A DNA stretch of 28,894 nucleotides. Source: an uncultured Gammaproteobacteria bacterium (GTDB lineage: Bacteria; Pseudomonadota; Gammaproteobacteria; Arenicellales; JAANXG01). Below the pieces are notes generated by a model. The model was not told the origin of the DNA. It saw only the letters and a program-made list of their open reading frames with translations, and did no database searches. Below are positions 8,246 through 28,894 of the stretch, one piece after another. The position numbers were made by a program, and so were the translations under genes. The stretch covers positions 1 through 28,894 of the forward strand of contig CAMYKW010000038.1 of NCBI GenBank assembly GCA_947259175.1. Direction: 5' to 3'. Every line of letters starts with the position of its first letter. Within the stretch, counting starts at the first letter, position 1.

Positions 8246-8995
8246 TCACGGTTTTCGCGCCCGAAAGGTAGCGCCGACGGTCGTCTCCGCGGTGCGGTAG
8301 CCGGTGAATGAGACGGTCTCAATGGCCGTAAAACCTGCTTGTGCAAGCATGCCATGGTAGCGCTCCGGCTCGACCGTGCCCGACACGCAGTCGGCCCACG
8401 ACTCGCAAGCCGTCGCTGGCGAGGCGGCCGCGGCGGGATCGCGCACCATATCGGCGAACTGTAAGCGGCCGCCGGGCCGGAGCACGCGGTAGATTTCCTG
8501 GAAGACACAAAGCTTATGCGAGGTGAGGTTGATCGATCCGTTTGAGATCACCACATGGGCGCACGCATCTTCCACCGGAAGGTCCGTCATGTCCGCCTCG
8601 TGTATCTCCAGGTTGTCGACAGCCGCCAATCGCGCATTGTCCCGGGCCTTCGCCACCATCGCCGGCGTGACGTCGACGCCGATGACTCTGCCCTCGTTGC
8701 CGACCAGCAACGCCGCGATACAGGCATCCGCGCCCGCACCACATCCCAGGTCGACGACGGTCTCGCCGGGGTGGATCGGCCCCAGGGCAAACGGATTGCC
8801 CACCGCGGCCGCCGATTCCCACAGCCGGTCCGGCAGCCGATCCAGCCAGGCCGCGTCGTAGCCGTGGCGACCGGCGTTCTGTTTCCCTTTGCCCCAACCG
8901 AAGTCCTGATCCGGCCGCAGCGCCAACTCGGTATACAGCGCATTTATCGCAGCGACCGATTCGTCTTGCGCAACGGCTCTTTTGGCGTCACTCAT
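8246..8995 (-). CDS. Class I SAM-dependent methyltransferase, ArsM/UbiE-like
   Basis: SAM motif I (VVDLGCGAGADACIAALLVG), a post-I acidic motif (RVIGVDVTPAMVAKAR) and VLRPGGRL. There are several conserved-looking Cys residues. ATG 8995 (MSDAKR) was chosen for its AGGG RBS, but 9016 is an alternative start. Confidence 0.75.
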   Translation of the reverse strand: MSDAKRAVAQDESVAAINALYTELALRPDQDFGWGKGKQNAGRHGYDAAWLDRLPDRLWESAAAVGNPFALGPIHPGETVVDLGCGAGADACIAALLVGNEGRVIGVDVTPAMVAKARDNARLAAVDNLEIHEADMTDLPVEDACAHVVISNGSINLTSHKLCVFQEIYRVLRPGGRLQFADMVRDPAAAASPATACESWADCVSGTVEPERYHGMLAQAGFTAIETVSFTGYRTAETTVGATFRARKP

Positions 8996-9171
8996 GCATA
9001 ATGCCCTCATCTCCAAATTGCGTTGAGCGATTTAAAGCTATTACACACCACCGCGCAACACGGTGACGCCGACCGGGTGCACGGCAAACACCCATGCAGG
9101 GCGTTGCCCATCTATCCGGAACTACTTATGATGCACCGGCACCCCGGCCATCCCTGATCAAGAAAATCATT

Positions 9172-9924
9172 ATGTTGCTATTGGAAGACAAAATGGCGGT
9201 GGTAAGCGGCGCCGGAGCGAGCAACAGCATCGGCGCGGCCACCGCACGCGTGTTCGCCGCGCACGGCGCGCGCGTGGCCCTGCTCGACGTCAACGAAGCC
9301 GCGGTGCGGGAATCCGCCGCGGCGCTAGGCGAACCGCATCGCGCCTTTGCCGTCGACGCCGCCGATCAGCTTCAGTGCCAACAGGCCGTGGCCGATATCG
9401 TCACCGCGTTCGGTCGCATCGACATCCTGGTCAACAGCGTCGGTGTCGTCCACGGCACGCGGATACTCGATATCACCCAGCAGGAATATGACCAGGTCCT
9501 AGACAATAATCTGCGCGGCAACTTCCTGCTGTCGCAAGCGGTGCTGCCGCACATGAAGTCGAGAAAAGCCGGCAACATCATCTGCGTCTCCTCGATCGCC
9601 GGCCAGAGCGGCGGCGGGGTTTTCGGCAGCTCGCACTACGCGGCCGCCAAGTCGGGCATCTTCGGACTCGCGAAGGCGCTGGCGCGGGAGCTCGCCGCGG
9701 AGGGGATCCGCGTGAACGCGGTGGCCCCGGGTCCGGTGGACAACGATTTCACCAAGGGCCGCATGACCCGGCAGATCAAAGACGACCTCGCCGCCAAGGT
9801 GCCGCTGGGGCGTCTGGGCACGCCGGATGACGTCGCCAACGCCTGCCTGTTCCTGGCCTCGGACCTGTCCAGCTACATCACCGGCATCGTGTTGGACGTG
9901 AACGGCGGTTTGTTGATCCACTGA
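9172..9924 (+). CDS. Short-chain dehydrogenase/reductase (FabG-like 3-oxoacyl reductase family)
   Basis: Catalytic tetrad region (SSIAGQSGGG...YAAAKSG), the NNLRGNF and PGPVDNDF motifs, and IVLDVNGG at the C-terminus. The nucleotide fold is AVVSGAGASNSIGAATARVFAAHGARV. An alternative start is ATG 9193. Confidence 0.85.
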   Translation: MLLLEDKMAVVSGAGASNSIGAATARVFAAHGARVALLDVNEAAVRESAAALGEPHRAFAVDAADQLQCQQAVADIVTAFGRIDILVNSVGVVHGTRILDITQQEYDQVLDNNLRGNFLLSQAVLPHMKSRKAGNIICVSSIAGQSGGGVFGSSHYAAAKSGIFGLAKALARELAAEGIRVNAVAPGPVDNDFTKGRMTRQIKDDLAAKVPLGRLGTPDDVANACLFLASDLSSYITGIVLDVNGGLLIH

Positions 9925-9987: not shown

Positions 9988-10311
9988 TTACACCACTTCT
10001 ATCCGCGCCTGTTTCTCGATGGCGCTGCCGTCTTCGCCGGTCCACAGGAAGCGGAAAACGCCGCTCTCGGCGATACGGGCGTGGAACGACAGATAGGGAT
10101 CCGACGCGGTTCCGGCGTCCAGGTCCGCGCGAAACACCTCGCGGCCGTTGAACAGGCACACGAACCGGCCCGCCAACGCCTTGGGCACCGCCTTTCCGTC
10201 GAGGGTTCGCCGCCACCCGGATTCCATCGGATGGTTGAGCTTGGTCATCAGGCGAACGACTTCGTTTTTGGCCGCCGTGCGCGGCGCCTTTACGTGAATG
10301 GAGTTTCTCAT
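9988..10311 (-). CDS. soxZ: SoxZ sulfur-carrier complex subunit
   Basis: HPMESGWRR and DPYLSFHA motifs and a length typical of SoxZ. ATG 10311 overlaps the soxY stop (TAATG) and has a GGGAG RBS. An in-frame ATG at 10320 is an alternative start. Confidence 0.85.
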   Translation of the reverse strand: MRNSIHVKAPRTAAKNEVVRLMTKLNHPMESGWRRTLDGKAVPKALAGRFVCLFNGREVFRADLDAGTASDPYLSFHARIAESGVFRFLWTGEDGSAIEKQARIEVV

Positions 10312-10754
10312 TATCCGCATGCTCCCGCGCCGCCGGTTATCTTGCAGCGCGCCTTACCGATACGAACGCTGCCGTCACTCATCTGGGCAGCGGCGACCAC
10401 GATTTGCGTCTTGATCAGGCGTATGCGTGTCGAGATCTCCGCCTTGCCGTTGGCCGGGCTGAGATGAAACGAAGCGATGGCCGGTGTCGGGTTGCGTTCT
10501 GCGACCACGTGGATGGCCTTGACGTGGTCGTCTTCGGTCATCGGGCTTTCGACCGAAATCCGCATCGGTACATGACGCGCCTGGTCGGTCACCGCCGGCA
10601 GGGTGATGGTGACACCGCCTTTCAGCTGTTCGGCGCCTCCCGTCAATTTGGCCAACAGTTGCTTGGCTTCCCGCGGGGCGGCTTCGGTGTCGCGAAGCCA
10701 CCCGGCCGCGGACAGGGCAACCATCCACAGCAGCAGCTCGCGTCGACTCAACAT
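10311..10754 (-). CDS. soxY: SoxY sulfur-carrier protein (TAT signal) with an atypical C-terminal motif
   Basis: MLSRRELLLWMVALSAAGW is a twin-arginine signal. The LTGGAEQLKGGVTITLP...STRIRLIKTQIVVAAAQMSDGSVRIGKA backbone matches Paracoccus SoxY. The C-terminus reads CKITGGAGACG instead of the canonical VTIGGCGG. The track ORF has a spurious 68-aa extension. Confidence 0.85.
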   Translation of the reverse strand: MLSRRELLLWMVALSAAGWLRDTEAAPREAKQLLAKLTGGAEQLKGGVTITLPAVTDQARHVPMRISVESPMTEDDHVKAIHVVAERNPTPAIASFHLSPANGKAEISTRIRLIKTQIVVAAAQMSDGSVRIGKARCKITGGAGACG

Positions 10755-10786
10755 GGTGGGGTGTCCTCGGAACTGTTCATGGGTTG

Positions 10787-12355
10787 TTAGGGCCTGTTTT
10801 TCAGATACACGACAGCACGCAATCCGCCGTGCGCAATCACAACGATCAGGGCGATTAGCGCCAGGGCGTAGCCGATGCGGTCGATCCACGGATCGGCATC
10901 GCGCCCGGGGATGTAAACGCCCGCCACGTGTTGCAGACGGCCGTTGTTGCTGTGGCACTCGCCGCAGCGCAGCGCCTCATCGGCCGGCGCCACCATGTGG
11001 GTGATGGGCCAGGACATCTCGGTGGTGACGAATCCGTAGCTGCCGCTGTAGGTGCGGTCAACCGCCTGCATACCCGCGGCGATGGATCGATCCCAGTTCA
11101 GCGTCTTCCAGTAGCCTTGTTTGGTGGTGGTCAGCGGCGTCACCAGGGTCTTCGATTCCACGTCGTACGGCTGCTTGCCGCGCATCACCTTCACCGGCCA
11201 GATGCGCGTGTCCCGCGCTCCCGGCTCGCCGAGGAAGCGATTGATCGGCACTACGCCGTTCGGGTCGATGCGGTCGTCCCGCAGGGTGTAATGCACCGTG
11301 CCGTTGAACCAGCGGTACTCCGGCGCCTGGTGCTTGGCCCACAAGAAGTCTCCCTTCTTCGAGTTGTAGACCTCCAAACCGTTGGCGTCTTCTCTTGAGA
11401 GCTGTTTGCCGTCGGCGCCGAGCTCGCCCGCGGTGGACCAGTCCCACCACATCTTGGTGGCGTAGTCGCCGCGGGAGAACGCCGGGATGTGGCAGGTCTG
11501 GCATGCGATCCTGGCCGTGTGGTCGTTGAGCTTGGGCGTCGAATCGTGGGGCGCCGCGCCGTGGCATGCGCGGCAGGTGGTGCGGTCGCTGCCCGCGCGG
11601 CCCGGCACGCCGACATCCGCGTTATCGACCGCCGTAGGCGTGTAGCGGCTCCCTTTGACCTCGTGCCGGGTTGCGGTATGGCAGGTGGAGCAGGTGAAGT
11701 TCAGCCCTTCCGCATCCATGTGCACATCGACGAAATAATCCGGATGCGCCAGGGTGGGGTCGATGTCGCCGTGCTTCACCGCCTTGGCGCCGCCGCCGGC
11801 GAAATGACAGGTGCCGCAGGTGCGCCGACTCGTCGGTCCGACCTTCTGGGCGAACTGCTCCAGCTTGAGCCGCCGCTTGCCGGGATTGCGCAACTTCTCA
11901 CGGGAATAGAGCCCGGTGGTGTCGTGGCATACCAGGCAATCGACGTGTTCCTCGGAGGCGAAATCGAAGCTGCCGTCGGTCCACCCGTAGCCGATGTGGC
12001 ACTTGGTGCAGGCCGCCATGTTCGGGGCCGCGGCGATGCAGAAGTTGTTCACCACATGTCGTTTGCCCAGCCGCTGGCCGGTCGCCGGGTTGTCGTATTC
12101 CCAGGTCCAGTGCTTGGTCCGGTGGAGCTGTTTGGCGGCGTTGGTGTGACAAGCAAGGCACGCCCGCGTCACCTCGGGGCCCGATGCGAATTTGACCTTG
12201 AGCTCGTCGAACTTGCTGTGATCCGCCGTCGACGAATGCGGCCCGGCGGCTGCGTGCACCGGCGTCGTGACGCTGACCAACCACATCACGATCAGCGACG
12301 CACACAAACGCAAGACCGACGCTTTGAAGTCCGAGTGATTAACTGTTTCGCGCAT
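10787..12355 (-). CDS. Octaheme c-type cytochrome (OTR/ONR-sized, 8 CxxCH) with an N-terminal signal peptide and a C-terminal hydrophobic anchor
   Basis: Eight CxxCH motifs (CLACH, CTKCH, CLVCH, CGTCH, CSTCH, CRACH, CQTCH, CGECH). The signal peptide is LRLCASLIVMWLVSVTTPVHAAA. The C-terminal segment is IGYALALIALIVVIAHGGLRAVVYLKNRP. Confidence 0.85.
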   Translation of the reverse strand: MRETVNHSDFKASVLRLCASLIVMWLVSVTTPVHAAAGPHSSTADHSKFDELKVKFASGPEVTRACLACHTNAAKQLHRTKHWTWEYDNPATGQRLGKRHVVNNFCIAAAPNMAACTKCHIGYGWTDGSFDFASEEHVDCLVCHDTTGLYSREKLRNPGKRRLKLEQFAQKVGPTSRRTCGTCHFAGGGAKAVKHGDIDPTLAHPDYFVDVHMDAEGLNFTCSTCHTATRHEVKGSRYTPTAVDNADVGVPGRAGSDRTTCRACHGAAPHDSTPKLNDHTARIACQTCHIPAFSRGDYATKMWWDWSTAGELGADGKQLSREDANGLEVYNSKKGDFLWAKHQAPEYRWFNGTVHYTLRDDRIDPNGVVPINRFLGEPGARDTRIWPVKVMRGKQPYDVESKTLVTPLTTTKQGYWKTLNWDRSIAAGMQAVDRTYSGSYGFVTTEMSWPITHMVAPADEALRCGECHSNNGRLQHVAGVYIPGRDADPWIDRIGYALALIALIVVIAHGGLRAVVYLKNRP

Positions 12356-12445
12356 ATCGATCACCACAATCGTCCGCCGTCAGGGCCCGGCCACAAACCC
12401 TCTCCGGGCCGGGCTCATCGAAGTTCAGAAAGTTCAGATCAACGT

Positions 12446-13573
12446 CTAGTCCGGAGGCGAGGCCGTGGGTATGCTGCCGTCCTTGTGGAACTGCACGTTG
12501 GCGTCGAGGAAGTAGACCTCGAGGGCGTCGCGCTCCAGTTTGACGATGTCATAAGCTTCGCCGCCGCGTGCGCCGGTGGAGCAGAAAAAGATGATGGGTT
12601 TATCCGCAGGCAACTCACCAACCTTGTCTTGCAGGTCGTCGACCGCCATGACCACCGCCTTGGCGTAGGTCCCATCGGCCTCCACTTCTTCCGGGTCACG
12701 CACATCGTACCAATGGAATTGGTCGGAGTGGTTTTTGATCAGGTTGTTGAACGAGGCGATGGTGATGATCCCGGCCTCTTCACCGGTTTCAATCTTGGCC
12801 GCGTCCGATGGGCTCGCCGCCGCCTTCGCGAGTCCTCCCGCGGCGCCGTATTCCGCCTTCCAGTTCGGATAGCCCGCCTGGAACAGCTTGACGTTGGTGT
12901 AGCCTTGGGCCACGGCCTTGGCGGCGGACTTGGGGCTCAGCGGGCACTTGTAGCCGCCGCAGTAATAGATGAGTTCGGTGGCTTTATCGGCCGGCAGCAT
13001 GTTCAGCTTGGCGTCGAACTCGCGGTTGGAGACGTTGATGGCGCCCGGCACATGGCCCTTTTTGAATTTGCGCGCCGGTCGGGCGTCGACGATGACGGCG
13101 CCGGAAGGCTTATCGACCAGTTTCTTTACATAAGCGGCGCTCACGCCGGTAACGCGTCCGGATTTTTTCCACTCGGGGTAGCCGGCGGCGTACACCTTGA
13201 TGTTGGTATAACCCAGCGCCTCCGCCTTCGCCGCCGACTTGTGGCTGAGCTTGCACTTCAGGCCGCCGCAATAAAAAATCAGCAGCGTCGACTTATCTTC
13301 GGGCAATAGGTGCGTCAGTTTGTCGAACTGGCTGTTGGAGATGTTGATGGCTGGAACGATGTGCCCCTTGTCGTATTTCCTCGCCGGCCGCGAATCGATA
13401 ATCAACACATCGTCTTTTTTCGGGACGGTGGCGTACTGGCTGACGAACTCCGTATCCACGATGTGTTTGTATTGCGCCGCGGTTTGCTGTTGGGTGTCCG
13501 CCGCGGCCGGGAGCGCCGGCACCGCGAGCAGACAGATCAACGCGGCGGTATACAGTGATGTTGCTGGTTTCAC
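12446..13573 (-). CDS. Periplasmic triple-rhodanese (sulfurtransferase) domain protein
   Basis: The GTG start gives MKPATSLYTAALICLLAVPALPAAA (signal), with GAGG 9 nt upstream. There are three rhodanese modules with active-site loops FYCGGLKC, YYCGGYKC and FFCSTGARGG. Confidence 0.85.
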   Translation of the reverse strand: MKPATSLYTAALICLLAVPALPAAADTQQQTAAQYKHIVDTEFVSQYATVPKKDDVLIIDSRPARKYDKGHIVPAINISNSQFDKLTHLLPEDKSTLLIFYCGGLKCKLSHKSAAKAEALGYTNIKVYAAGYPEWKKSGRVTGVSAAYVKKLVDKPSGAVIVDARPARKFKKGHVPGAINVSNREFDAKLNMLPADKATELIYYCGGYKCPLSPKSAAKAVAQGYTNVKLFQAGYPNWKAEYGAAGGLAKAAASPSDAAKIETGEEAGIITIASFNNLIKNHSDQFHWYDVRDPEEVEADGTYAKAVVMAVDDLQDKVGELPADKPIIFFCSTGARGGEAYDIVKLERDALEVYFLDANVQFHKDGSIPTASPPD

Positions 13574-13784
13574 GACAAGTACCTCACTCAATCTGTGCGT
13601 CCCTTCGGGGTGGACTATCCCAGGATTAATAGGCGTTAAATTATATAAGAATATAACCAAATAGCTTTGATCGAGGTCAATGAACGCGGCGATCGCAAGC
13701 GGCTCCGATGACGACGGTCCGCGCCGTTCGTCCATCCCGATAGATCAGGTAAACTGCTCATCGCGATCCAGGAAATGAGTGGTT

Positions 13785-14378
13785 ATGAAACACGAATACA
13801 AGCCCAGGTTTTATGTCCCGCTGCAGGCGGGAATCACCTACACGCGGCCGCAGCCCGCGGCGGACTATGTGCACCTCGACAACCCGGCGATCGATGTCAT
13901 GACGGACTTTCGCGACGTGGTGCCCAGGACGACGAAACCCTCGGTGCCCATCGACGACGCTCTGGAAGCGATGAAACAAAAGGGCGTGCGCTCGCTGCTG
14001 GTCACCGGGGAGAACGACGACATCATCGGCGTGGTGACCGCACAGGACATCCAAGGTGAAAAGCCGATTAAACTCTCCGAGGAAACCCGAATCGCTCACG
14101 CGGCCATCACCGTCGAGCACGTGATGACGCCGCAGTCCGAACTTTCCGTTTTGAAAATGATCAGCGTCGAGGAAGCGCAAGTCGGCCACATCGTGGAGAC
14201 CTTGCGGGAACTGAAAAGACAGCACCTGCTGGTGGTGGATGTCAATGAAGCGACCGGAGAGCAATGCATCCGTGGCATGTTTTCGACCAGCCAGATCGAC
14301 AAGCAAATGCATAAGGACCCCGACGACGAGATCGCATCAGCGGAATCCTTGGCGGAAGTCGTTCAGACCATGGGTTGA
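13785..14378 (+). CDS. CBS-pair domain protein
   Basis: Two CBS motifs (VRSLLVTGENDDIIGVVTAQDI and QHLLVVDVNEATGEQCIRGMFSTSQI). ATG 13785 follows a GAGTGG RBS. Confidence 0.8.
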   Translation: MKHEYKPRFYVPLQAGITYTRPQPAADYVHLDNPAIDVMTDFRDVVPRTTKPSVPIDDALEAMKQKGVRSLLVTGENDDIIGVVTAQDIQGEKPIKLSEETRIAHAAITVEHVMTPQSELSVLKMISVEEAQVGHIVETLRELKRQHLLVVDVNEATGEQCIRGMFSTSQIDKQMHKDPDDEIASAESLAEVVQTMG

Positions 14379-22812: not shown

Positions 22813-23442
22813 TTATCGCGATCTTGCCGCCAGCCTGTGCACATTGTGACAAGTTGAGCATTTGAGATCTTCGAAGGTGATGGTCGTGTCCTTGAAACGG
22901 GGGTGTTCGACTTTTCTCTCGTCATGGCAGCGGTAGCACGTCGCGTTTTGTCCTTCCTTGTCCATCATGCGGTCGGTCTCTGTGTGCAACGAATGACAGG
23001 TGGTGCAGCTCAGTAACGCCCAATCGTGTGCGCTGCTGGCGAACACCACCGCCCGCTCGCCCTCTGCATCCGGCGCGTGGCAGGCGAGGCAGGCGCGTAC
23101 CTGATCGTCCCGCGGTGAGGCTTCGGGCCCTTCGCCGAACCGAACCATGGAAGGGAAGCCCTTGCCGCCATGCGCCCGTGAGACGTGAAAGCTGCCGGGA
23201 CCGTGGCAGTCCTCGCAGCCGCGCCGGGTCATCGGATTATCGGCGCCGTGCACGCCGGTCTGGATCGTGTTGATCTTCTCGCCGGAGTGGCACACCAGGC
23301 ACCCCTGGGTGCCTTCATCGGTAAATATCGGATGACGCTTGTTGTTCTGTGAGTGTGCCAGCGGAACGCTCAAGGTAAACATCAGGCACGTGGATACGAT
23401 ACACCGTAGCCGGCGTTGGGCGGTCAATGAATTCTTGTCCAT
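22813..23442 (-). CDS. Small hexaheme c-type cytochrome (6 CxxCH in ~180 mature residues) with a signal peptide
   Basis: CLVCH, CEDCH, CLACH, CTTCH, CYRCH and CSTCH. The N-terminal hydrophobic segment is LRCIVSTCLMFTLSVPLAHS. The stop lies only 31 nt upstream of nqrA. Confidence 0.8.
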   Translation of the reverse strand: MDKNSLTAQRRLRCIVSTCLMFTLSVPLAHSQNNKRHPIFTDEGTQGCLVCHSGEKINTIQTGVHGADNPMTRRGCEDCHGPGSFHVSRAHGGKGFPSMVRFGEGPEASPRDDQVRACLACHAPDAEGERAVVFASSAHDWALLSCTTCHSLHTETDRMMDKEGQNATCYRCHDERKVEHPRFKDTTITFEDLKCSTCHNVHRLAARSR

Positions 23443-26306: not shown

Positions 26307-27221
26307 ATGACTAACTTGGGATCAGTTTTCGAACAACGGTGCGATGCCGTTCAGTCCTGCAGTGCGATAGAACTACTGATCAGACCACGCGACCGGGATC
26401 TGGGCGGCTTCTCGGTGCGACGGGTGTTGCCGACAAAGGAACGAAAGATGGTCGGCCCTTGGATTTTTTTTGACCATATGGGCCCGGCGGACTTCGAGGC
26501 CGGACAAGGTATCAACGTAAGGCCGCACCCGCATATCAATCTCGCAACCGTGACTTATCTGTTCGAAGGAGAAATCCTGCACCGCGATTCGCTCGGTAGC
26601 CTCCAGAGCATTCGGCCAGGCGATATCAACCTGATGGTCGCGGGCCGGGGAATCGTACATTCAGAGCGCGAAACGCCGGCGGTCACCGCGGAACCGCATC
26701 GACTCCACGGTCTGCAACTGTGGCTCGCCCTGCCCGACGCGGATGAAGAAGTCGAATCGGCTTTCCACCATTACCCGGCCGCAGAAATACCCTCGGTCAC
26801 GGTGGCGGGCGTGTCCCTGCGCGTAATGATGGGTTCAGCTTACGGCGCGACATCGCCGGTCAGGGTGTTCGCCGAGACGCTCTACGTCGAGGCGCATCTT
26901 CATGCAGGCCAATCCATTGCTCTTCCGGATGCCGAGGAACGCGCGGTGTACGTGGCCAGTGGCAGCCTGTCGGCGCGGGGCACGCCAATCCCCGAGCATT
27001 CGATGGCCTTGTTTTCCGACGAAACAGGAATCAGCTTGGAGGCGGAGGAGGAGGCGCGCATCGCGGTGATCGGCGGCGCCAAACTGGGCCGGCGCTATAT
27101 CGAGTGGAATTTCGTTTCCAGCCGCAAGTCGCGGATCGAAGCGGCGAAGGAAGATTGGAGGGCGGGCCGCTTTCCGAAAGTGCCCGGCGACGATAAGGAG
27201 TTTATTCCCCTGCCGGACTAA
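26307..27221 (+). CDS. Pirin-family bicupin protein
   Basis: HPHINLATVTYLFEGEILHRDSLG is the pirin metal-binding cupin motif. The C-terminal cupin repeat is present. An AGGAG RBS sits 7 nt upstream of ATG 26307. Confidence 0.85.
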   Translation: MTNLGSVFEQRCDAVQSCSAIELLIRPRDRDLGGFSVRRVLPTKERKMVGPWIFFDHMGPADFEAGQGINVRPHPHINLATVTYLFEGEILHRDSLGSLQSIRPGDINLMVAGRGIVHSERETPAVTAEPHRLHGLQLWLALPDADEEVESAFHHYPAAEIPSVTVAGVSLRVMMGSAYGATSPVRVFAETLYVEAHLHAGQSIALPDAEERAVYVASGSLSARGTPIPEHSMALFSDETGISLEAEEEARIAVIGGAKLGRRYIEWNFVSSRKSRIEAAKEDWRAGRFPKVPGDDKEFIPLPD

Positions 27222-27330
27222 CATCCGCCCTTATGATCGGTAAGACACACTCGTTGCGGGACGCGGCAGGGTCGCTTATTTAAAGAGAGTTCGGTGCACG
27301 GTGCGGGCATCTGACGCTGATTCTGTGTGA

Positions 27331-27345
27331 TGCAACAATGTTGCA
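27331..27345. repeat. Perfect 15-nt palindrome TGCAACAATGTTGCA, in the intergenic region at the GC-content transition
   Basis: Read directly. It is a candidate protein-binding site or recombination site. Confidence 0.3.
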
Positions 27346-27592
27346 GCGCGATAGGCTGAAGAATACTCGTTGCGTGCCTTCGCAATTTTAGTATCTTCGC
27401 ATTCACGACGCGGAGGAAGCAGGAGTTCTATTGACACGACCCTATGTCCGCTTTTCTTTATTGATATATCTTAATTTATCTCAAGGTATGGTCATGCCAA
27501 TTCAATGGGGCACAATGAATCAGGCCGAGATAAACGACAAATCAGCAGCGGGATTATCGGACACATTTGGGTTCATAAATAGTTAGGTATCA

Positions 27593-28018
27593 ATGAAAGA
27601 ACTTTTGAGACGATGGTTCCTTGTTGTAGCGATAATGATGGCCCAAGGATCCGCAGTACTGGCTGATGACTGTGACGTGAGCTTAGAAAGTCTGTTTTCG
27701 AAGTTATTGGATATAAAAGGAAGAGGAGATGTAGATGCGTTTCTGGAGTTCTTTCATTCGACAGGCAAACTGCTTATGGAGGGAGGGCTCAAAAAGGATC
27801 CTGGGCTAAGGCAGAGAACAATTGACCAATGGAATTACAACCTCGAGATGTATAAGAATTACGAAGTGGCAAATGTTTTTCTGTCTCGGAATTGCATGAT
27901 TGGAATACTAGAATTGTCGAGAAAGAAGGACACGGATTCAGGACCACCGGCTTTAGAGGTATTGTTTGTTAAATTAGTCGGGGGCTGGAAATTCGTATAT
28001 GAAATACACGTAAACTGA
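27593..28018 (+). CDS. Hypothetical small secreted protein encoded in a low-GC (~42%) patch
   Basis: A signal peptide (MKELLRRWFLVVAIMMAQGSAVLA), an AGGT RBS, and codon usage unlike the host. No recognisable family. Confidence 0.55.
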   Translation: MKELLRRWFLVVAIMMAQGSAVLADDCDVSLESLFSKLLDIKGRGDVDAFLEFFHSTGKLLMEGGLKKDPGLRQRTIDQWNYNLEMYKNYEVANVFLSRNCMIGILELSRKKDTDSGPPALEVLFVKLVGGWKFVYEIHVN

Positions 28019-28112
28019 TACCTATTCATTCGAGTGCGACGCTCTGAATCGCGCGCTTCAATGAGACCGTTAGGCGCCATAATTTTTCTCATTCGTGGCT
28101 CCCTCAGTGCGC

Positions 28113-28118
28113 TATAAT
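28113..28118 (+). promoter_or_regulatory. Consensus -10 hexamer TATAAT, 6 nt upstream of the antitoxin ATG. Suggests a leaderless or near-leaderless TA transcript.
   Basis: A perfect TATAAT read directly. TA operons are commonly autoregulated at such promoters. Confidence 0.3.
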
Positions 28119-28124
28119 TGCATT

Positions 28125-28346
28125 ATGAATGAACCTCAAATCGACATTGAGAAACTGGACATCGAGCAACGCTTGCGTCTCATCGAGCGTCTGTGGGACA
28201 GCCTTAGCGGAGATCTGCAAGCCTTTCCATTGACGGCTGGGCAAGAAGCCGAACTTGATCGGCGCTTGGATGAAATGGAAGCTGAAGATGCGGAAGGGAT
28301 ACCATGGGAAGAAGTCATGAAGAGGATACGGGCCCGGTTGGGTTGA
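28125..28346 (+). CDS. Type II antitoxin (putative addiction-module component, TIGR02574-like), partner of a RelE/ParE toxin
   Basis: MNEPQIDIEKLDIEQRLRLIERLWDSL...EAELDRRLDEMEAEDAEGIPWEEVMKRIRARLG is the characteristic small acidic antitoxin pattern. Confidence 0.75.
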   Translation: MNEPQIDIEKLDIEQRLRLIERLWDSLSGDLQAFPLTAGQEAELDRRLDEMEAEDAEGIPWEEVMKRIRARLG

Positions 28347-28636
28347 TTCCCGTCGAGATTCGTCCTGCGGCCGCCGCTGATATCGAAGAAGCGGCTCTTT
28401 GGTATAACTCCCAGCGACCGGGTCTAGGTGTGGAATTCTTGGACGAGCTTGCCTTCGCGCGGCAATCGATAGTTGAGGCGCCTCAAAGATTCCCAGTGGT
28501 CAAGCGGGACACCCGGCGAGCTCTTTTGAGGCGATTTCCATATGCTTTGTATTACCGCGTTTATCGGGACCGCATTCTTATCGTTGCGTGTATGCACGGC
28601 CGGAGGCATTCAAAACGGTGGCAGAGACGCAAATAA
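28304..28636 (+). CDS. RelE/ParE-family type II toxin
   Basis: IPVEIRPAAAADIEEAALWY...FPYALYYRVYRDRILIVACMHGRRH shows ParE/RelE conservation. The start is uncertain: ATG 28304 overlaps the antitoxin by 43 nt, and TTG 28343 overlaps its stop as TTGA. Confidence 0.7.
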   Translation: MGRSHEEDTGPVGLIPVEIRPAAAADIEEAALWYNSQRPGLGVEFLDELAFARQSIVEAPQRFPVVKRDTRRALLRRFPYALYYRVYRDRILIVACMHGRRHSKRWQRRK

Positions 28637-28894
28637 CACCTAAAGCGCTGCAGCCGATGTGCCTACCCGTCACGCAGCTGAGCCTAGACGTTACGTTCAT
28701 CCCGCAAAAGCGGACGCTTAAATTGAGATTGATGATCAGAAGTTCCTGCCGTTTCCGCAAAATATAGTCAAATAGGCGTATGTCCGGATAGGGCAGATTC
28801 TGTTGAAAAACTCGATGATTGAATGCTCGCCATGAGATAATTGTAGCTCCGAGTTTCAAAGGGTTTCTTCCCATGATGGGACACCTACCGGCGC

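What the first reader, a model, noticed from the sequence alone, without database searches (positions are those of the whole stretch)
9988..13573. Non-canonical sulfur-oxidation module: triple rhodanese, membrane-anchored octaheme cytochrome and SoxYZ, without SoxAX/B
Four co-directional minus-strand genes sit on one apparent transcription unit. They are a periplasmic protein with three rhodanese domains (two CGG active-site loops), an 8-heme c-type cytochrome of OTR/ONR size with a C-terminal hydrophobic helix, and SoxY and SoxZ. No soxX, soxA, soxB or soxCD lie anywhere in the 28.9 kb. In the canonical Sox system the heme partner that loads thiosulfate onto SoxY is the SoxXA cytochrome. Here the only heme protein in the operon is an octaheme of the family that includes tetrathionate reductase and octaheme nitrite/sulfite reductases. 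This suggests a previously undescribed pathway. The octaheme might perform thiosulfate/tetrathionate or sulfite redox chemistry on, or deliver electrons from, SoxY-bound sulfane delivered by the rhodanese. The C-terminal anchor would keep it at the membrane near the quinone pool and NQR.
Basis: partly seen in the sequence, partly recalled or inferred. Interest (0 to 1): 0.75.

Follow-up and report, generated by a model that had tools for sequence, protein, structure and literature searches.

The report
Octahaem reductase with its own SoxYZ
A compact four-gene cassette pairs a membrane-anchored relative of the Shewanella octahaem tetrathionate reductase with its own long-armed version of the sulfur carrier SoxYZ and a triple rhodanese; the pairing is real, recurs in many bacteria, was noted once before in clam symbionts, and its chemistry has never been tested.

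Summary
Four co-directional minus-strand genes at 9988-13573 encode a secreted triple rhodanese, an octahaem OTR-family cytochrome with a C-terminal membrane helix, a Tat-exported SoxY and a translationally coupled SoxZ. No other sox gene lies in the 28.9-kb contig.

- **Family:** the cytochrome is a clear OTR-family member (TIGR04315 580 bits; PDB 1SP3 E=6e-117). All eight CxxCH motifs, the Lys that ligates haem 2 and a nearby Cys are invariant in 81 sequences.
- **Carrier:** the SoxY is a distinct paralogue with a longer arm (…GGAG[G/A]CG). In SoxY-seeded metagenome loci this arm type sat next to an OTR in 8 of 8 cases, against 0 of 46 for other arm types.
- **Cassette:** only the four genes are conserved across 20 loci. 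About half also carry a PhsC-like cytochrome b, separate or fused to OTR; this window has none.
- **Sister clade:** there SoxYZ is replaced by a DUF302 protein ending in a glycine-rich arm and a terminal Cys.
- **Prior work:** the otr-soxY-soxZ synteny was published in 2024 for lucinid clam symbionts, which also keep soxB. "Previously undescribed" and "without SoxAX/B" are therefore overstated.

I think the enzyme most likely makes or breaks S-S bonds on the carrier cysteine. I lean towards reduction, but the direction is open.

The parts
12446..13573 (-). Secreted triple-rhodanese protein, 375 aa. Domains 1 and 2 have CGGxKC (Cx4C) loops; domain 3 has a canonical CSTGARG loop.
   Evidence: Three PF00581 domains, 139 bits. 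GTG start with a GAGG ribosome-binding site and a Sec signal peptide. All five Cys are invariant in 25/25 homologues. Present in 16/20 SoxYZ-linked loci, and partly visible at the cut end of three of the other four (L001, L005, L085).
10787..12367 (-). OTR-family octahaem c-type cytochrome, 526 aa, with an N-terminal signal peptide (alternative ATG start at 12355).
   Evidence: TIGR04315 580.5 bits against a cutoff of 375. PDB 1SP3 E=6.1e-117 over residues 54-482. 8 CxxCH motifs, invariant in the alignment of 81 sequences (two rows are gapped at a motif).
12062..12064 (-). Codon of Lys102, the equivalent of Lys56 of S. oneidensis OTR, which ligates catalytic haem 2 (C120-T-K-C123-H124).
   Evidence: Alignment to 1SP3. 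Invariant in 81/81. Role of Lys56 taken from PMC3769277.
12038..12040 (-). Codon of Cys110 (NNFC motif, = Cys64 of 1SP3), an invariant non-haem Cys eight residues after the Lys ligand.
   Evidence: Invariant in 81/81. A catalytic role is my inference only.
10820..10876 (-). C-terminal transmembrane helix of the octahaem (residues ~498-516), with an invariant His513-Gly514 near its cytoplasmic end.
   Evidence: Kyte-Doolittle 2.33. The helix and the His-Gly are present in every full-length proteobacterial relative among the 80 loci and absent from 1SP3.
10311..10754 (-). SoxY paralogue with a long arm, 147 aa, Tat signal SRRELL. C-terminus ...KITGGAGACG; the carrier Cys146 codon is at 10317-10319.
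   Evidence: PF13501 100.8 bits, but below both NCBIfam SoxY cutoffs. Identical to P0001. Paracoccus SoxY 2OX5 E=1e-16, with a 2-residue insertion before the Cys. The arm type is shared by ~104 of the top 120 clusters.
9988..10311 (-). SoxZ paralogue, 107 aa (110 aa if it starts at 10320), no signal peptide. Its start overlaps the soxY stop (TAATG).
   Evidence: PF08770 63.7 bits; TIGR04490 58 bits, below the cutoff of 76. Junction sequence. SoxZ follows SoxY in all 20 loci.
13574..13700 (-). AT-rich, promoter-like leader upstream of the rhodanese gene, divergent from the CBS-domain gene at 13779.
   Evidence: Read directly from the sequence: ttgacc...tatatt/tataat, then the GAGG ribosome-binding site. 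The consensus scanner did not call it, so this part is inferred.

Best explanation
This is a self-contained periplasmic sulfur-redox cassette.

**Components**
- The enzyme is an OTR-type octahaem cytochrome, held on the outer face of the inner membrane by a C-terminal helix.
- The dedicated SoxYZ paralogue presents sulfur species covalently bound to the thiol of its C-terminal Cys. That Cys sits on an arm two residues longer than in canonical SoxY.
- The secreted triple rhodanese loads or unloads sulfane sulfur, or resolves mixed S-S species through its Cx4C loops.

**Proposed reaction.** The octahaem makes or breaks the S-S bond between the carrier Cys and the bound sulfur group at its Lys-ligated haem 2.

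**My preferred direction is reductive.** Tetrathionate, a polythionate or polysulfide sulfur reacts with the carrier thiolate to give SoxY-Cys-S-S-SO3- (or a persulfide). OTR then cleaves this adduct with two electrons, which regenerates the carrier and releases thiosulfate or sulfide. In about half of the relatives the electrons would come from quinol through a PhsC-like cytochrome b, either adjacent or fused. In this contig, which has no cytochrome b, they would come from an unidentified donor.

**Shown:** the identity of the four proteins, the conserved catalytic residues, the membrane anchor, and the strict and exclusive co-occurrence.

**Inferred:** that the SoxY arm is the substrate, the role of the rhodanese, the direction of electron flow and the electron partner.
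For: **1. Family membership and active site.**
- TIGR04315 scores 580 bits against a cutoff of 375.
- 1SP3 matches at E=6e-117.
- The 8 CxxCH motifs, K102 and C110 are invariant.

**2. An exclusive link between arm type and enzyme.**
- In SoxY-seeded metagenome loci, long-arm SoxY has otr upstream in 8/8 cases.
- Canonical (VTIGGCGG) and AAC[LT]E arms have it in 0/46, Fisher p=1e-9.
- In OTR-seeded genome loci, SoxYZ is present only in one monophyletic OTR clade: 12 loci plus the window.

**3. A cassette.**
- Only these four genes are conserved across 20 loci with otherwise unrelated flanks.
- The gene order varies: the rhodanese is upstream in gammaproteobacteria and downstream of soxZ in Rhodospirillales.

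**4. An independent parallel.**
- In the sister OTR clade, 43 loci carry a membrane-anchored DUF302 protein directly upstream of otr.
- Its glycine-rich tail ends in an invariant Gly-Cys-stop.
- This is a second, unrelated 'Cys on a flexible arm' next to the same enzyme.
- In all, 72 of 80 loci have some thiol-bearing partner.

**5. A quinone link in relatives.**
- A PF01292, PhsC-like cytochrome b follows otr in 65 sister-clade loci.
- In L082, L085, L086, L088, L089, L091, L094 and L095 it lies between otr and soxY.
- In L003-L006 it is fused in frame to OTR.

**6. Biochemistry of a membrane-anchored relative.**
- BOGUAY_2386 has N- and C-terminal TM helices and a thiosulfate-reductase-type cytochrome b among its downstream genes.
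- It reduced tetrathionate at 22-93 umol/min/mg and nitrite at 1.3 umol/min/mg (PMC6449678).

**7. Chemical precedent.**
- Tetrathionate converts carrier-protein Cys residues to S-thiosulfonates (PMC4175335).
- TsdA works through a Cys S-thiosulfonate (PMC4423706).
- Both points come from abstracts listed.
Against: - No experiment links any OTR to any SoxYZ.
- Free tetrathionate is already a substrate of OTRs in vitro, so the need for a carrier is unexplained.
- This contig has no cytochrome b (tblastn E>0.3), so the electron partner here is unknown.
- Most hosts are sulfur oxidisers, and SoxYZ is so far known only from oxidative pathways. That favours the opposite direction.
- The OTR assays used methyl viologen, which says nothing about physiological direction.
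- Eight of the 80 loci have OTR plus cytochrome b with no recognisable thiol partner.
Confidence: 0.55

Rival explanations
1. The octahaem replaces SoxXA and oxidatively couples thiosulfate, sulfide or rhodanese-delivered sulfane sulfur to the SoxY cysteine. The electrons pass through eight haems to periplasmic cytochromes or to the quinone pool. The loaded carrier is then processed by other enzymes, for example a canonical SoxB encoded elsewhere.
For: - The hosts of the cassette and of the sister clade are mostly sulfur oxidisers: Thiodiazotropha, Ectothiorhodospiraceae, Sedimenticola, Thiobacillus, Sulfuricella.
- SoxYZ is known as the carrier of an oxidative pathway, and the SoxXA reaction is chemically the reverse of tetrathionate-type S-S cleavage.
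- This contig lacks cytochrome b, so electrons need not go uphill to quinone.
- Sulfide-to-persulfide coupling would be downhill to quinone in any case.
- Related thiosulfate/tetrathionate haem enzymes (TsdA) run in both directions (abstracts).
Against: - No hydrolase or SoxCD-type partner is conserved in any of 20 loci, so a loaded carrier would have no exit within the cassette.
- The cytochrome b in relatives is PhsC-like, a reductase-side type.
- The thiosulfate/tetrathionate couple is +198 mV (PMC9562282 abstract), above ubiquinone.
- OTR family members have been shown to act only as reductases (Mowat 2004 as cited).
- Relatives keep a complete canonical Sox system with its own SoxY, so no replacement is needed.
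Confidence: 0.25
2. The cassette is a periplasmic thiol-repair or detoxification system rather than an energy pathway. It would remove thiosulfonate or persulfide adducts (from tetrathionate, polysulfide or reactive sulfur species) from envelope cysteines. SoxYZ and the Cx4C rhodanese domains would act as thiol-exchange shuttles, and OTR as the electron source.
For: - A TlpA-like periplasmic redoxin accompanies the sister-clade DUF302-OTR-cytochrome b loci in 26 cases.
- Rhodanese domains 1 and 2 carry Cx4C pairs. Their best NCBIfam match is the rhodanese part of TsoB, a rhodanese/DsbD fusion whose equivalent positions are Ux4U. That suggests a redox-active pair.
- The cassette also occurs in organisms I do not know to be lithotrophic sulfur oxidisers, such as Aestuariirhabdus, and the sister clade in Aromatoleum, Caenispirillum and Ideonella. 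That judgement is from my own knowledge.
Against: - An eight-haem enzyme with a quinol-side cytochrome b is a heavy investment for repair.
- No stress regulator is conserved beside the cassette.
- The TsoB match is domain-level only: 110 bits against a cutoff of 805.
Confidence: 0.1
3. The octahaem is really a nitrite or hydroxylamine reductase, as Shewanella OTR can be in vitro. On this view SoxYZ and the rhodanese are unrelated neighbours.
For: - Shewanella OTR and BOGUAY_2386 both reduce nitrite in vitro.
- Lys-ligated haems are typical of nitrite ammonifiers.
Against: - The co-occurrence is exclusive (8/8 against 0/46), with translational coupling and a conserved four-gene block in unrelated genomic contexts.
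- The nitrite rate of BOGUAY_2386 was roughly 20-70 times lower than its tetrathionate rate.
- No nitrogen-cycle gene is conserved nearby.
Confidence: 0.05

Closest known systems
otr - soxY-S3 - soxZ island of lucinid clam symbionts (Ca. Thiodiazotropha; PMC11237559, 2024)
   Same: Same gene set and order: rhodanese, otr, soxY, soxZ. Same arm signature (...KITGGAGGCG). The symbiont loci L003, L004 and L006 are 67-70% identical in OTR and 65-68% in SoxY.
   Different: In the symbiont loci OTR is fused in frame to a cytochrome b561 domain (736-783 aa); the window has no cytochrome b. The paper called signature 3 unique to lucinid symbionts. Here it is also found in Ectothiorhodospiraceae, Rhodospirillales and Magnetospiraceae MAGs, in Aestuariirhabdus sp. 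Z084 and in about 100 metagenome clusters. No function was tested there or here.
Octahaem tetrathionate reductase of Shewanella oneidensis (SO_4144, PDB 1SP3)
   Same: Eight CxxCH motifs, Lys ligand of haem 2, the NNFC cysteine, and an alignment along the whole catalytic domain (E=6e-117).
   Different: The Shewanella type is soluble (~460 aa) and has no C-terminal helix. It has no cytochrome b, SoxYZ or rhodanese. In S. algae the neighbours are a monohaem cytochrome c and DUF3373.
BOGUAY_2386, tetrathionate/nitrite-reducing octahaem of orange Guaymas Beggiatoaceae (PMC6449678)
   Same: An OTR homologue with N- and C-terminal hydrophobic helices. By its description it belongs to the membrane-anchored proteobacterial group, and it is the only such member that has been assayed.
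   Different: Its downstream genes include a thiosulfate-reductase-type cytochrome b and phs/psr-like genes, not SoxYZ. I did not have its sequence, so its clade was not placed in my tree.
Canonical Sox system (SoxXA, SoxYZ, SoxB, SoxCD)
   Same: A Tat-exported SoxY with a C-terminal Cys on a glycine arm, and a SoxZ without a signal peptide encoded directly downstream. A haem protein is the presumed partner at the arm.
   Different: The arm is GGAGACG rather than GGCGG. Both proteins score below the NCBIfam 'true' SoxY and SoxZ cutoffs. There is no SoxXA, SoxB or SoxCD in the cassette, and the haem partner is an unrelated octahaem.
Polysulfide reductase with the Sud sulfurtransferase of Wolinella succinogenes (established knowledge, not tested here)
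   Same: A periplasmic rhodanese-type protein that hands sulfane sulfur to a membrane-bound, quinol-linked sulfur reductase.
   Different: Psr is a molybdoenzyme with a NrfD-type anchor, and no covalent carrier of the SoxYZ type is involved.
Quinoprotein-dehydrogenase-associated SoxYZ-like carriers (TIGR04557) and AACIE-arm SoxY paralogues (TIGR04487)
   Same: They set a precedent that SoxYZ paralogues with altered arms are dedicated partners of non-Sox periplasmic redox enzymes. TIGR04487 is the best NCBIfam match of this SoxY (126.9 bits).
   Different: The score is below the cutoff of 172. The arm motif and the partner enzyme differ, and none of the AAC[LT]E-arm loci examined had an OTR.

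Membership tests
OTR family octahaem c-type cytochrome (TIGR04315 / PDB 1SP3) | Profile score above the curated cutoff | tested here: met
   580.5 bits against a cutoff of 375, covering the full profile 1-440.
OTR family octahaem c-type cytochrome (TIGR04315 / PDB 1SP3) | Eight CxxCH haem-binding motifs | tested here: met
   Residues 70, 120, 144, 184, 226, 265, 289 and 468, aligned with those of 1SP3 and 79 relatives.
OTR family octahaem c-type cytochrome (TIGR04315 / PDB 1SP3) | A Lys remote from any CxxCK motif that ligates catalytic haem 2 (Lys56 in 1SP3) | tested here: met
   K102 in GKRH aligns with K56 in GKKN and is invariant in 81/81. Ligation itself is inferred from the alignment.
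OTR family octahaem c-type cytochrome (TIGR04315 / PDB 1SP3) | Tetrathionate reductase activity | not testable with these tools
   Known only for Shewanella OTR and BOGUAY_2386, from the literature.
Canonical thiosulfate-oxidation carrier SoxY (TIGR04488, GGCGG arm) | Equivalog score above the cutoff and a C-terminal GGCGG motif | tested here: not met
   93 bits against a cutoff of 125. The C-terminus is GGAGACG, with a 2-residue insertion before the Cys compared with Paracoccus SoxY.
SoxY superfamily (PF13501) | Domain match, Tat signal, and a C-terminal Cys on a glycine-rich arm | tested here: met
   100.8 bits against a cutoff of 28.4. RR and the arm positions G142, G144, C146 and G147 are invariant in 12 diverse paralogues.
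Canonical SoxZ (TIGR04490) | Equivalog score above the cutoff | tested here: not met
   58.3 bits against a cutoff of 76. Pfam SoxZ is met (63.7 against 25).
Complete Sox multienzyme system | soxXA and soxB (with or without soxCD) encoded with soxYZ | tested here: not met
   None are in the 28.9-kb contig or in any of the 20 related loci. The rest of this genome could not be inspected.
Rhodanese sulfurtransferase (PF00581) | Rhodanese fold with a catalytic Cys at the start of the active-site loop | tested here: met
   Three domains, each with an invariant loop Cys (C102, C205 and C331 of the 375-aa protein). Activity was not tested.
TsoB rhodanese/DsbD selenoprotein (NF045694) | Full-length match, including the DsbD part and the Ux4U loops | tested here: not met
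   110 bits against a cutoff of 805; only the rhodanese region matches. The loops here are Cx4C.
otr-soxY(S3)-soxZ island (PMC11237559) | soxY with the signature-3 arm directly downstream of otr and upstream of soxZ | tested here: met
   The gene order is confirmed in the window and in the Ctena and Thiodiazotropha loci L003, L004 and L006, which fall in the same OTR clade.

The most novel reading that the evidence does not exclude
Membrane-anchored OTR enzymes would not primarily be reductases of free tetrathionate. They would be oxidoreductases of sulfur adducts on protein cysteines.

- Their native substrate would be a Cys carried on a flexible C-terminal arm: SoxY here, a DUF302 'Gly-Cys' protein in the sister clade.
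- This would define a new, widespread way of wiring carrier-bound sulfur to the membrane electron-transport chain. It would be functionally parallel to SoxXA but evolutionarily unrelated.
- It could also explain why the physiological role of OTR has stayed unclear since 2004.
Probability: 0.35. Interest if true: 0.8.

Novelty: new variant of a known kind. Interest (0 to 1): 0.6.

Why it matters
OTR has had a crystal structure since 2004, but its natural role is still unclear. SoxYZ is the textbook sulfur carrier, yet paralogues with altered arms keep turning up beside non-Sox enzymes.

This cassette ties the two problems together through a strict genomic link, and it gives a concrete hypothesis that ordinary biochemistry can test: the SoxY arm adduct is the OTR substrate. 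If that is right, it adds a new carrier-dependent branch to periplasmic sulfur metabolism. That branch would be present in symbionts, sediment gammaproteobacteria and alphaproteobacteria, and so would affect how tetrathionate, polythionate and persulfide turnover is inferred from metagenomes. Today these genes are annotated as 'thiosulfate oxidation carrier SoxY', which probably over-calls Sox-type thiosulfate oxidation.

Tried and rejected
- **Source genome.** Exact look-ups of the window's OTR (two start choices), SoxZ and SoxY found no contig on record. The cluster look-up gave no name or accession. I could therefore not identify the organism or check the rest of its genome for soxXAB. The nearest relative is an Ectothiorhodospiraceae MAG (L010, 76-83% aa identity).
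- **TsoB lead.** The top NCBIfam hit of the rhodanese is a domain-level match far below the cutoff. The paper that defines Tso (PMC12013261) is not held.
- **Cytochrome b in the window.** None was found.
- **Extra conserved neighbours.** I looked for regulators, SoxB, sulfite dehydrogenase, NQR and c-di-GMP genes.
- **RNA structures.** The hairpins between rhd and otr and after soxZ fold no better than shuffled sequence (z = -0.58 and -0.35). The consensus scans found no terminator, and the one promoter-like hit was no more than the ~0.8 expected by chance.
- **A hidden carrier.** I found none in the 8 loci that have only OTR plus cytochrome b.
- **Clade-specific OTR residues.** Only five substitutions and one deletion of roughly 13-15 residues near residue 160 distinguish the SoxYZ clade. 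I could not interpret these without coordinates.
- **Structure prediction.** Not run.
- **ONR or MccA identity.** Rejected, because TIGR04315 is the only family scoring above its cutoff.

Full report
**1. What is in the sequence**

The region 9988-13573 holds four co-directional minus-strand genes.

- **Rhodanese (12446-13573).** The long ORF runs up to 13735, but the real start is the GTG at 13573. That GTG is preceded by GAGTGAGG and followed by a Sec signal peptide, MKPATSLYTAALICLLAVPALPAAA/DT. The protein has three rhodanese domains.
- **Octahaem cytochrome (10787-12367).** It has a signal peptide and exactly eight CxxCH motifs. Its C-terminal hydrophobic helix covers residues ~498-516 and is followed by a basic tail.
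- **SoxY (10311-10754).** It is 147 aa long, has a twin-arginine signal, and is identical to database protein P0001. P0001's only contig is 28,894 bp long, so the window is a whole contig.
- **SoxZ (9988-10311).** Its ATG overlaps the soxY stop as TAATG.

The intergenic gaps are about 78 and 32 nt. The genes on either side run the other way: an SDR gene at 9094-9924 and a CBS-domain gene at 13779-14378, both on the plus strand.

The rest of the contig holds these genes:
- a methyltransferase and a histidine kinase/response regulator pair;
- a GAF-GGDEF protein, nqrA-F, and a hexahaem cytochrome c;
- an SPFH protein, a pirin, a MAPEG protein and a ParE toxin.

There is no sox gene and no third c-type cytochrome.

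**2. Identity of the parts**

*The cytochrome.* It is an unambiguous OTR-family member. TIGR04315 scores 580 bits against a cutoff of 375, and the Shewanella OTR structure 1SP3 matches at E=6e-117. Lys56 of 1SP3 ligates haem 2 (PMC3769277) and aligns with K102. K102 and the nearby NNFC cysteine (C110) are invariant in 81 sequences, and so are all eight haem motifs.

*SoxY and SoxZ.* Both pass their Pfam models but fall below the NCBIfam 'true' SoxY and SoxZ cutoffs. Compared with Paracoccus SoxY, the arm has two extra residues before the Cys and one Gly after it instead of two: KITGGAGACG against KVTIGGCGG.

*The rhodanese.*
- Domains 1 and 2 carry YCGGxKC loops, that is Cx4C. Domain 3 carries CSTGARG.
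- All five Cys are invariant in 25 homologues.
- The best NCBIfam match is the rhodanese part of the selenoprotein TsoB, whose loops are Ux4U.
- This hints that the Cys pair is redox-active, but the match is domain-level only.

**3. Comparative genomics**

*OTR-seeded genome scan.* A scan of species-representative genomes with the OTR found 469 relatives, and I kept the best 80 loci.
- All 80 matches extend to the query's C-terminal residues 517-525, apart from two loci cut by a contig end or a frame break (L013, L007).
- Every full-length ORF has the C-terminal helix with an invariant His-Gly. 1SP3 and the ~460-aa Shewanella-type proteins lack the helix.
- In a neighbour-joining tree, the 12 OTRs followed by soxY-soxZ form one clade together with the window.
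- That clade includes an Ectothiorhodospiraceae MAG at 80% identity, Ca. Thiodiazotropha and Ctena symbionts, and Rhodospirillales and Magnetospiraceae MAGs.
- The triple rhodanese lies upstream in the gammaproteobacteria and downstream of soxZ in the alphaproteobacteria.

*SoxY-seeded searches.*
- About 104 of the 120 closest clusters carry the long arm (GAGGCG 66, GAGACG 19, GGGGCG 8, GTGGCG 7). Canonical VTIGGCGG and AAC[LT]E arms appear only below about 50% identity.
- In metagenome loci seeded with SoxY, all 8 long-arm loci with upstream DNA have otr. None of the 46 loci with other arms does (p=1e-9).
- Clustering all ORFs of 20 SoxYZ-linked loci shows that only the four genes are shared. 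This is a portable cassette.

*Cytochrome b.*
- In L082, L085, L086, L088, L089, L091, L094 and L095 a separate cytochrome b561 (PF01292, PhsC-like) lies between otr and soxY.
- In L003-L006 it is fused in frame to OTR.
- The window and its nearest relatives have none.

*The sister clade (OTR 49-57% identical).*
- It has no SoxYZ, even at phmmer E<=10.
- In 65 loci it has the cytochrome b immediately downstream of otr.
- In 43 loci it has an upstream membrane-anchored DUF302 protein whose 12-20-residue glycine-rich tail ends in an invariant Gly-Cys-stop.
- Another 16 loci have the same triple rhodanese, often with a YeeE-type sulfur transporter, or that transporter alone. The DUF302 protein and the rhodanese almost never occur together.
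- In total, 72 of 80 loci place a protein thiol next to the enzyme.

*Soluble OTRs.* The Shewanella-type and Malonomonas OTRs have none of these partners.

**4. How it most likely works**

The recurring theme is an OTR with a membrane helix next to a protein that offers a cysteine on a flexible arm. I therefore propose that the enzyme acts on a sulfur adduct of that cysteine.

The chemistry has precedent:
- Tetrathionate turns carrier-protein cysteines into S-thiosulfonates (PMC4175335).
- SoxY-Cys-S-thiosulfonate is the first Sox intermediate (established knowledge).
- TsdA uses a Cys S-thiosulfonate intermediate (PMC4423706).
- An S-thiosulfonate on a protein is the unsymmetrical analogue of tetrathionate, which is the known OTR substrate.

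I lean towards reduction for three reasons:
1. The one assayed relative described with both TM helices and a thiosulfate-reductase-type cytochrome b downstream reduced tetrathionate 20-70 times faster than nitrite (PMC6449678).
2. The cytochrome b is of the thiosulfate-reductase type.
3. Thiosulfate oxidation at +198 mV (PMC9562282 abstract) would be uphill to quinone.

The oxidative reading stays alive. The hosts are mostly sulfur oxidisers, and sulfide-to-persulfide coupling would be downhill. This particular cassette also lacks the cytochrome b and could hand electrons to periplasmic cytochromes.

The rhodanese probably moves sulfane sulfur to or from the arm. Its Cx4C loops may resolve mixed S-S species. 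All of this section is inference, and none of it has been tested.

**5. Comparison with what is known, and novelty**

The synteny is not new. A 2024 study of lucinid symbionts described soxY-S3 downstream of otr and upstream of soxZ, drew a rhodanese in the island, and suggested a role in tetrathionate metabolism (PMC11237559). All of those symbiont genomes also have soxB and a canonical SoxY. 'Without SoxAX/B' therefore cannot be read as a replacement pathway, and for this contig the rest of the genome is unknown.

What goes beyond that paper:
- the arm type and the cassette are far more widespread than lucinid symbionts;
- the link between arm type and OTR is exclusive;
- cytochrome b is a frequent fifth member, sometimes fused to OTR;
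- the membrane helix with its His-Gly is universal in this group;
- an unrelated DUF302 'Gly-Cys' arm protein takes the place of SoxYZ in the sister clade.

DUF302 genes are also known between soxA and soxB in Acidithiobacillia, with no known function (PMC5037610).

I rate the locus a new variant of a known kind. The parts are known, the combination is recognised but uncharacterised, and this is a version without cytochrome b.

**6. Verdict**

The direction, the claim to be first and the 'no SoxAX/B' argument are not supported.

- Interest: 0.6.
- The carrier-substrate model is the most novel reading still open. I give it a probability of about 0.35.

Noticed in passing
L014-L078 (43 loci), directly upstream of otr; e.g. 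L044:186-731: A ~181-aa protein with an N-terminal TM helix, a DUF302 domain, a KPAPPLIK hinge and a 12-20-residue glycine-rich tail that ends in an invariant Gly-Cys-stop. No NCBIfam model matches it. It looks like a second, unrelated swinging-arm cysteine carrier for the same enzyme family, and it is almost mutually exclusive with the triple rhodanese.
   Followed up: partly
window 10820-10876 (OTR residues ~498-516) and the same helix in L001-L080: The C-terminal membrane helix carries an invariant His-Gly near its cytoplasmic end, whether or not a cytochrome b gene is present. A haem b ligand or a quinone-site role is conceivable but unexplained.
   Followed up: no
L003:6001-8130, L004, L005, L006: In Thiodiazotropha and Ctena symbiont genomes the OTR reading frame continues through the membrane helix into a complete cytochrome b561 domain (736-783 aa). 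This is a natural OTR-cytochrome b fusion.
   Followed up: partly
L024, L025, L031, L038, L056, L062, L067-L070, L074, L076-L080 and others: A betaproteobacterial subclade has otr, cytochrome b and the same triple rhodanese, often with a YeeE/YedE-type sulfur transporter (PF04143) between them. That points to thiosulfate or sulfur import linked to the enzyme.
   Followed up: no
window 22813-23442 (-): A secreted 209-aa hexahaem c-type cytochrome (NrfB-like, six CxxCH) is encoded immediately upstream of nqrA. It is an unusual neighbour for the Na+-NQR operon, and the only other c-type cytochrome in the contig.
   Followed up: partly
window 27000-28894: GC content drops to 0.48 in 27-28 kb, against ~0.62 elsewhere. 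Just downstream lies a ParE-type toxin ORF (28304-28636). This may be a small mobile or foreign segment at the contig end.
   Followed up: no
window 8849-8942 (-): ARAGORN calls a 94-nt tRNA-Pro(agg) inside the methyltransferase ORF (8246-9016). Its length and position suggest a false positive.
   Followed up: no
OTR alignment, window residue ~160 (between haems 3 and 4): The SoxYZ-linked OTR clade lacks a segment of roughly 13-15 residues that is present in the sister clade linked to cytochrome b and DUF302. Only five fixed substitutions separate the clades.
   Followed up: no
P0004 and other database entries: Long-arm SoxY proteins are annotated in public records as 'thiosulfate oxidation carrier protein SoxY'. 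One is attributed to a 'Halobacteria archaeon' MAG, which is probably a binning error. Such labels may inflate inferred Sox-type thiosulfate oxidation in metagenomes.
   Followed up: no
L164 (Shewanella algae AP024615.1): The soluble Shewanella-type otr sits in a monohaem cytochrome c - DUF3373 - otr arrangement next to a molybdopterin oxidoreductase gene. This context is quite different from that of the membrane-anchored clade.
   Followed up: no
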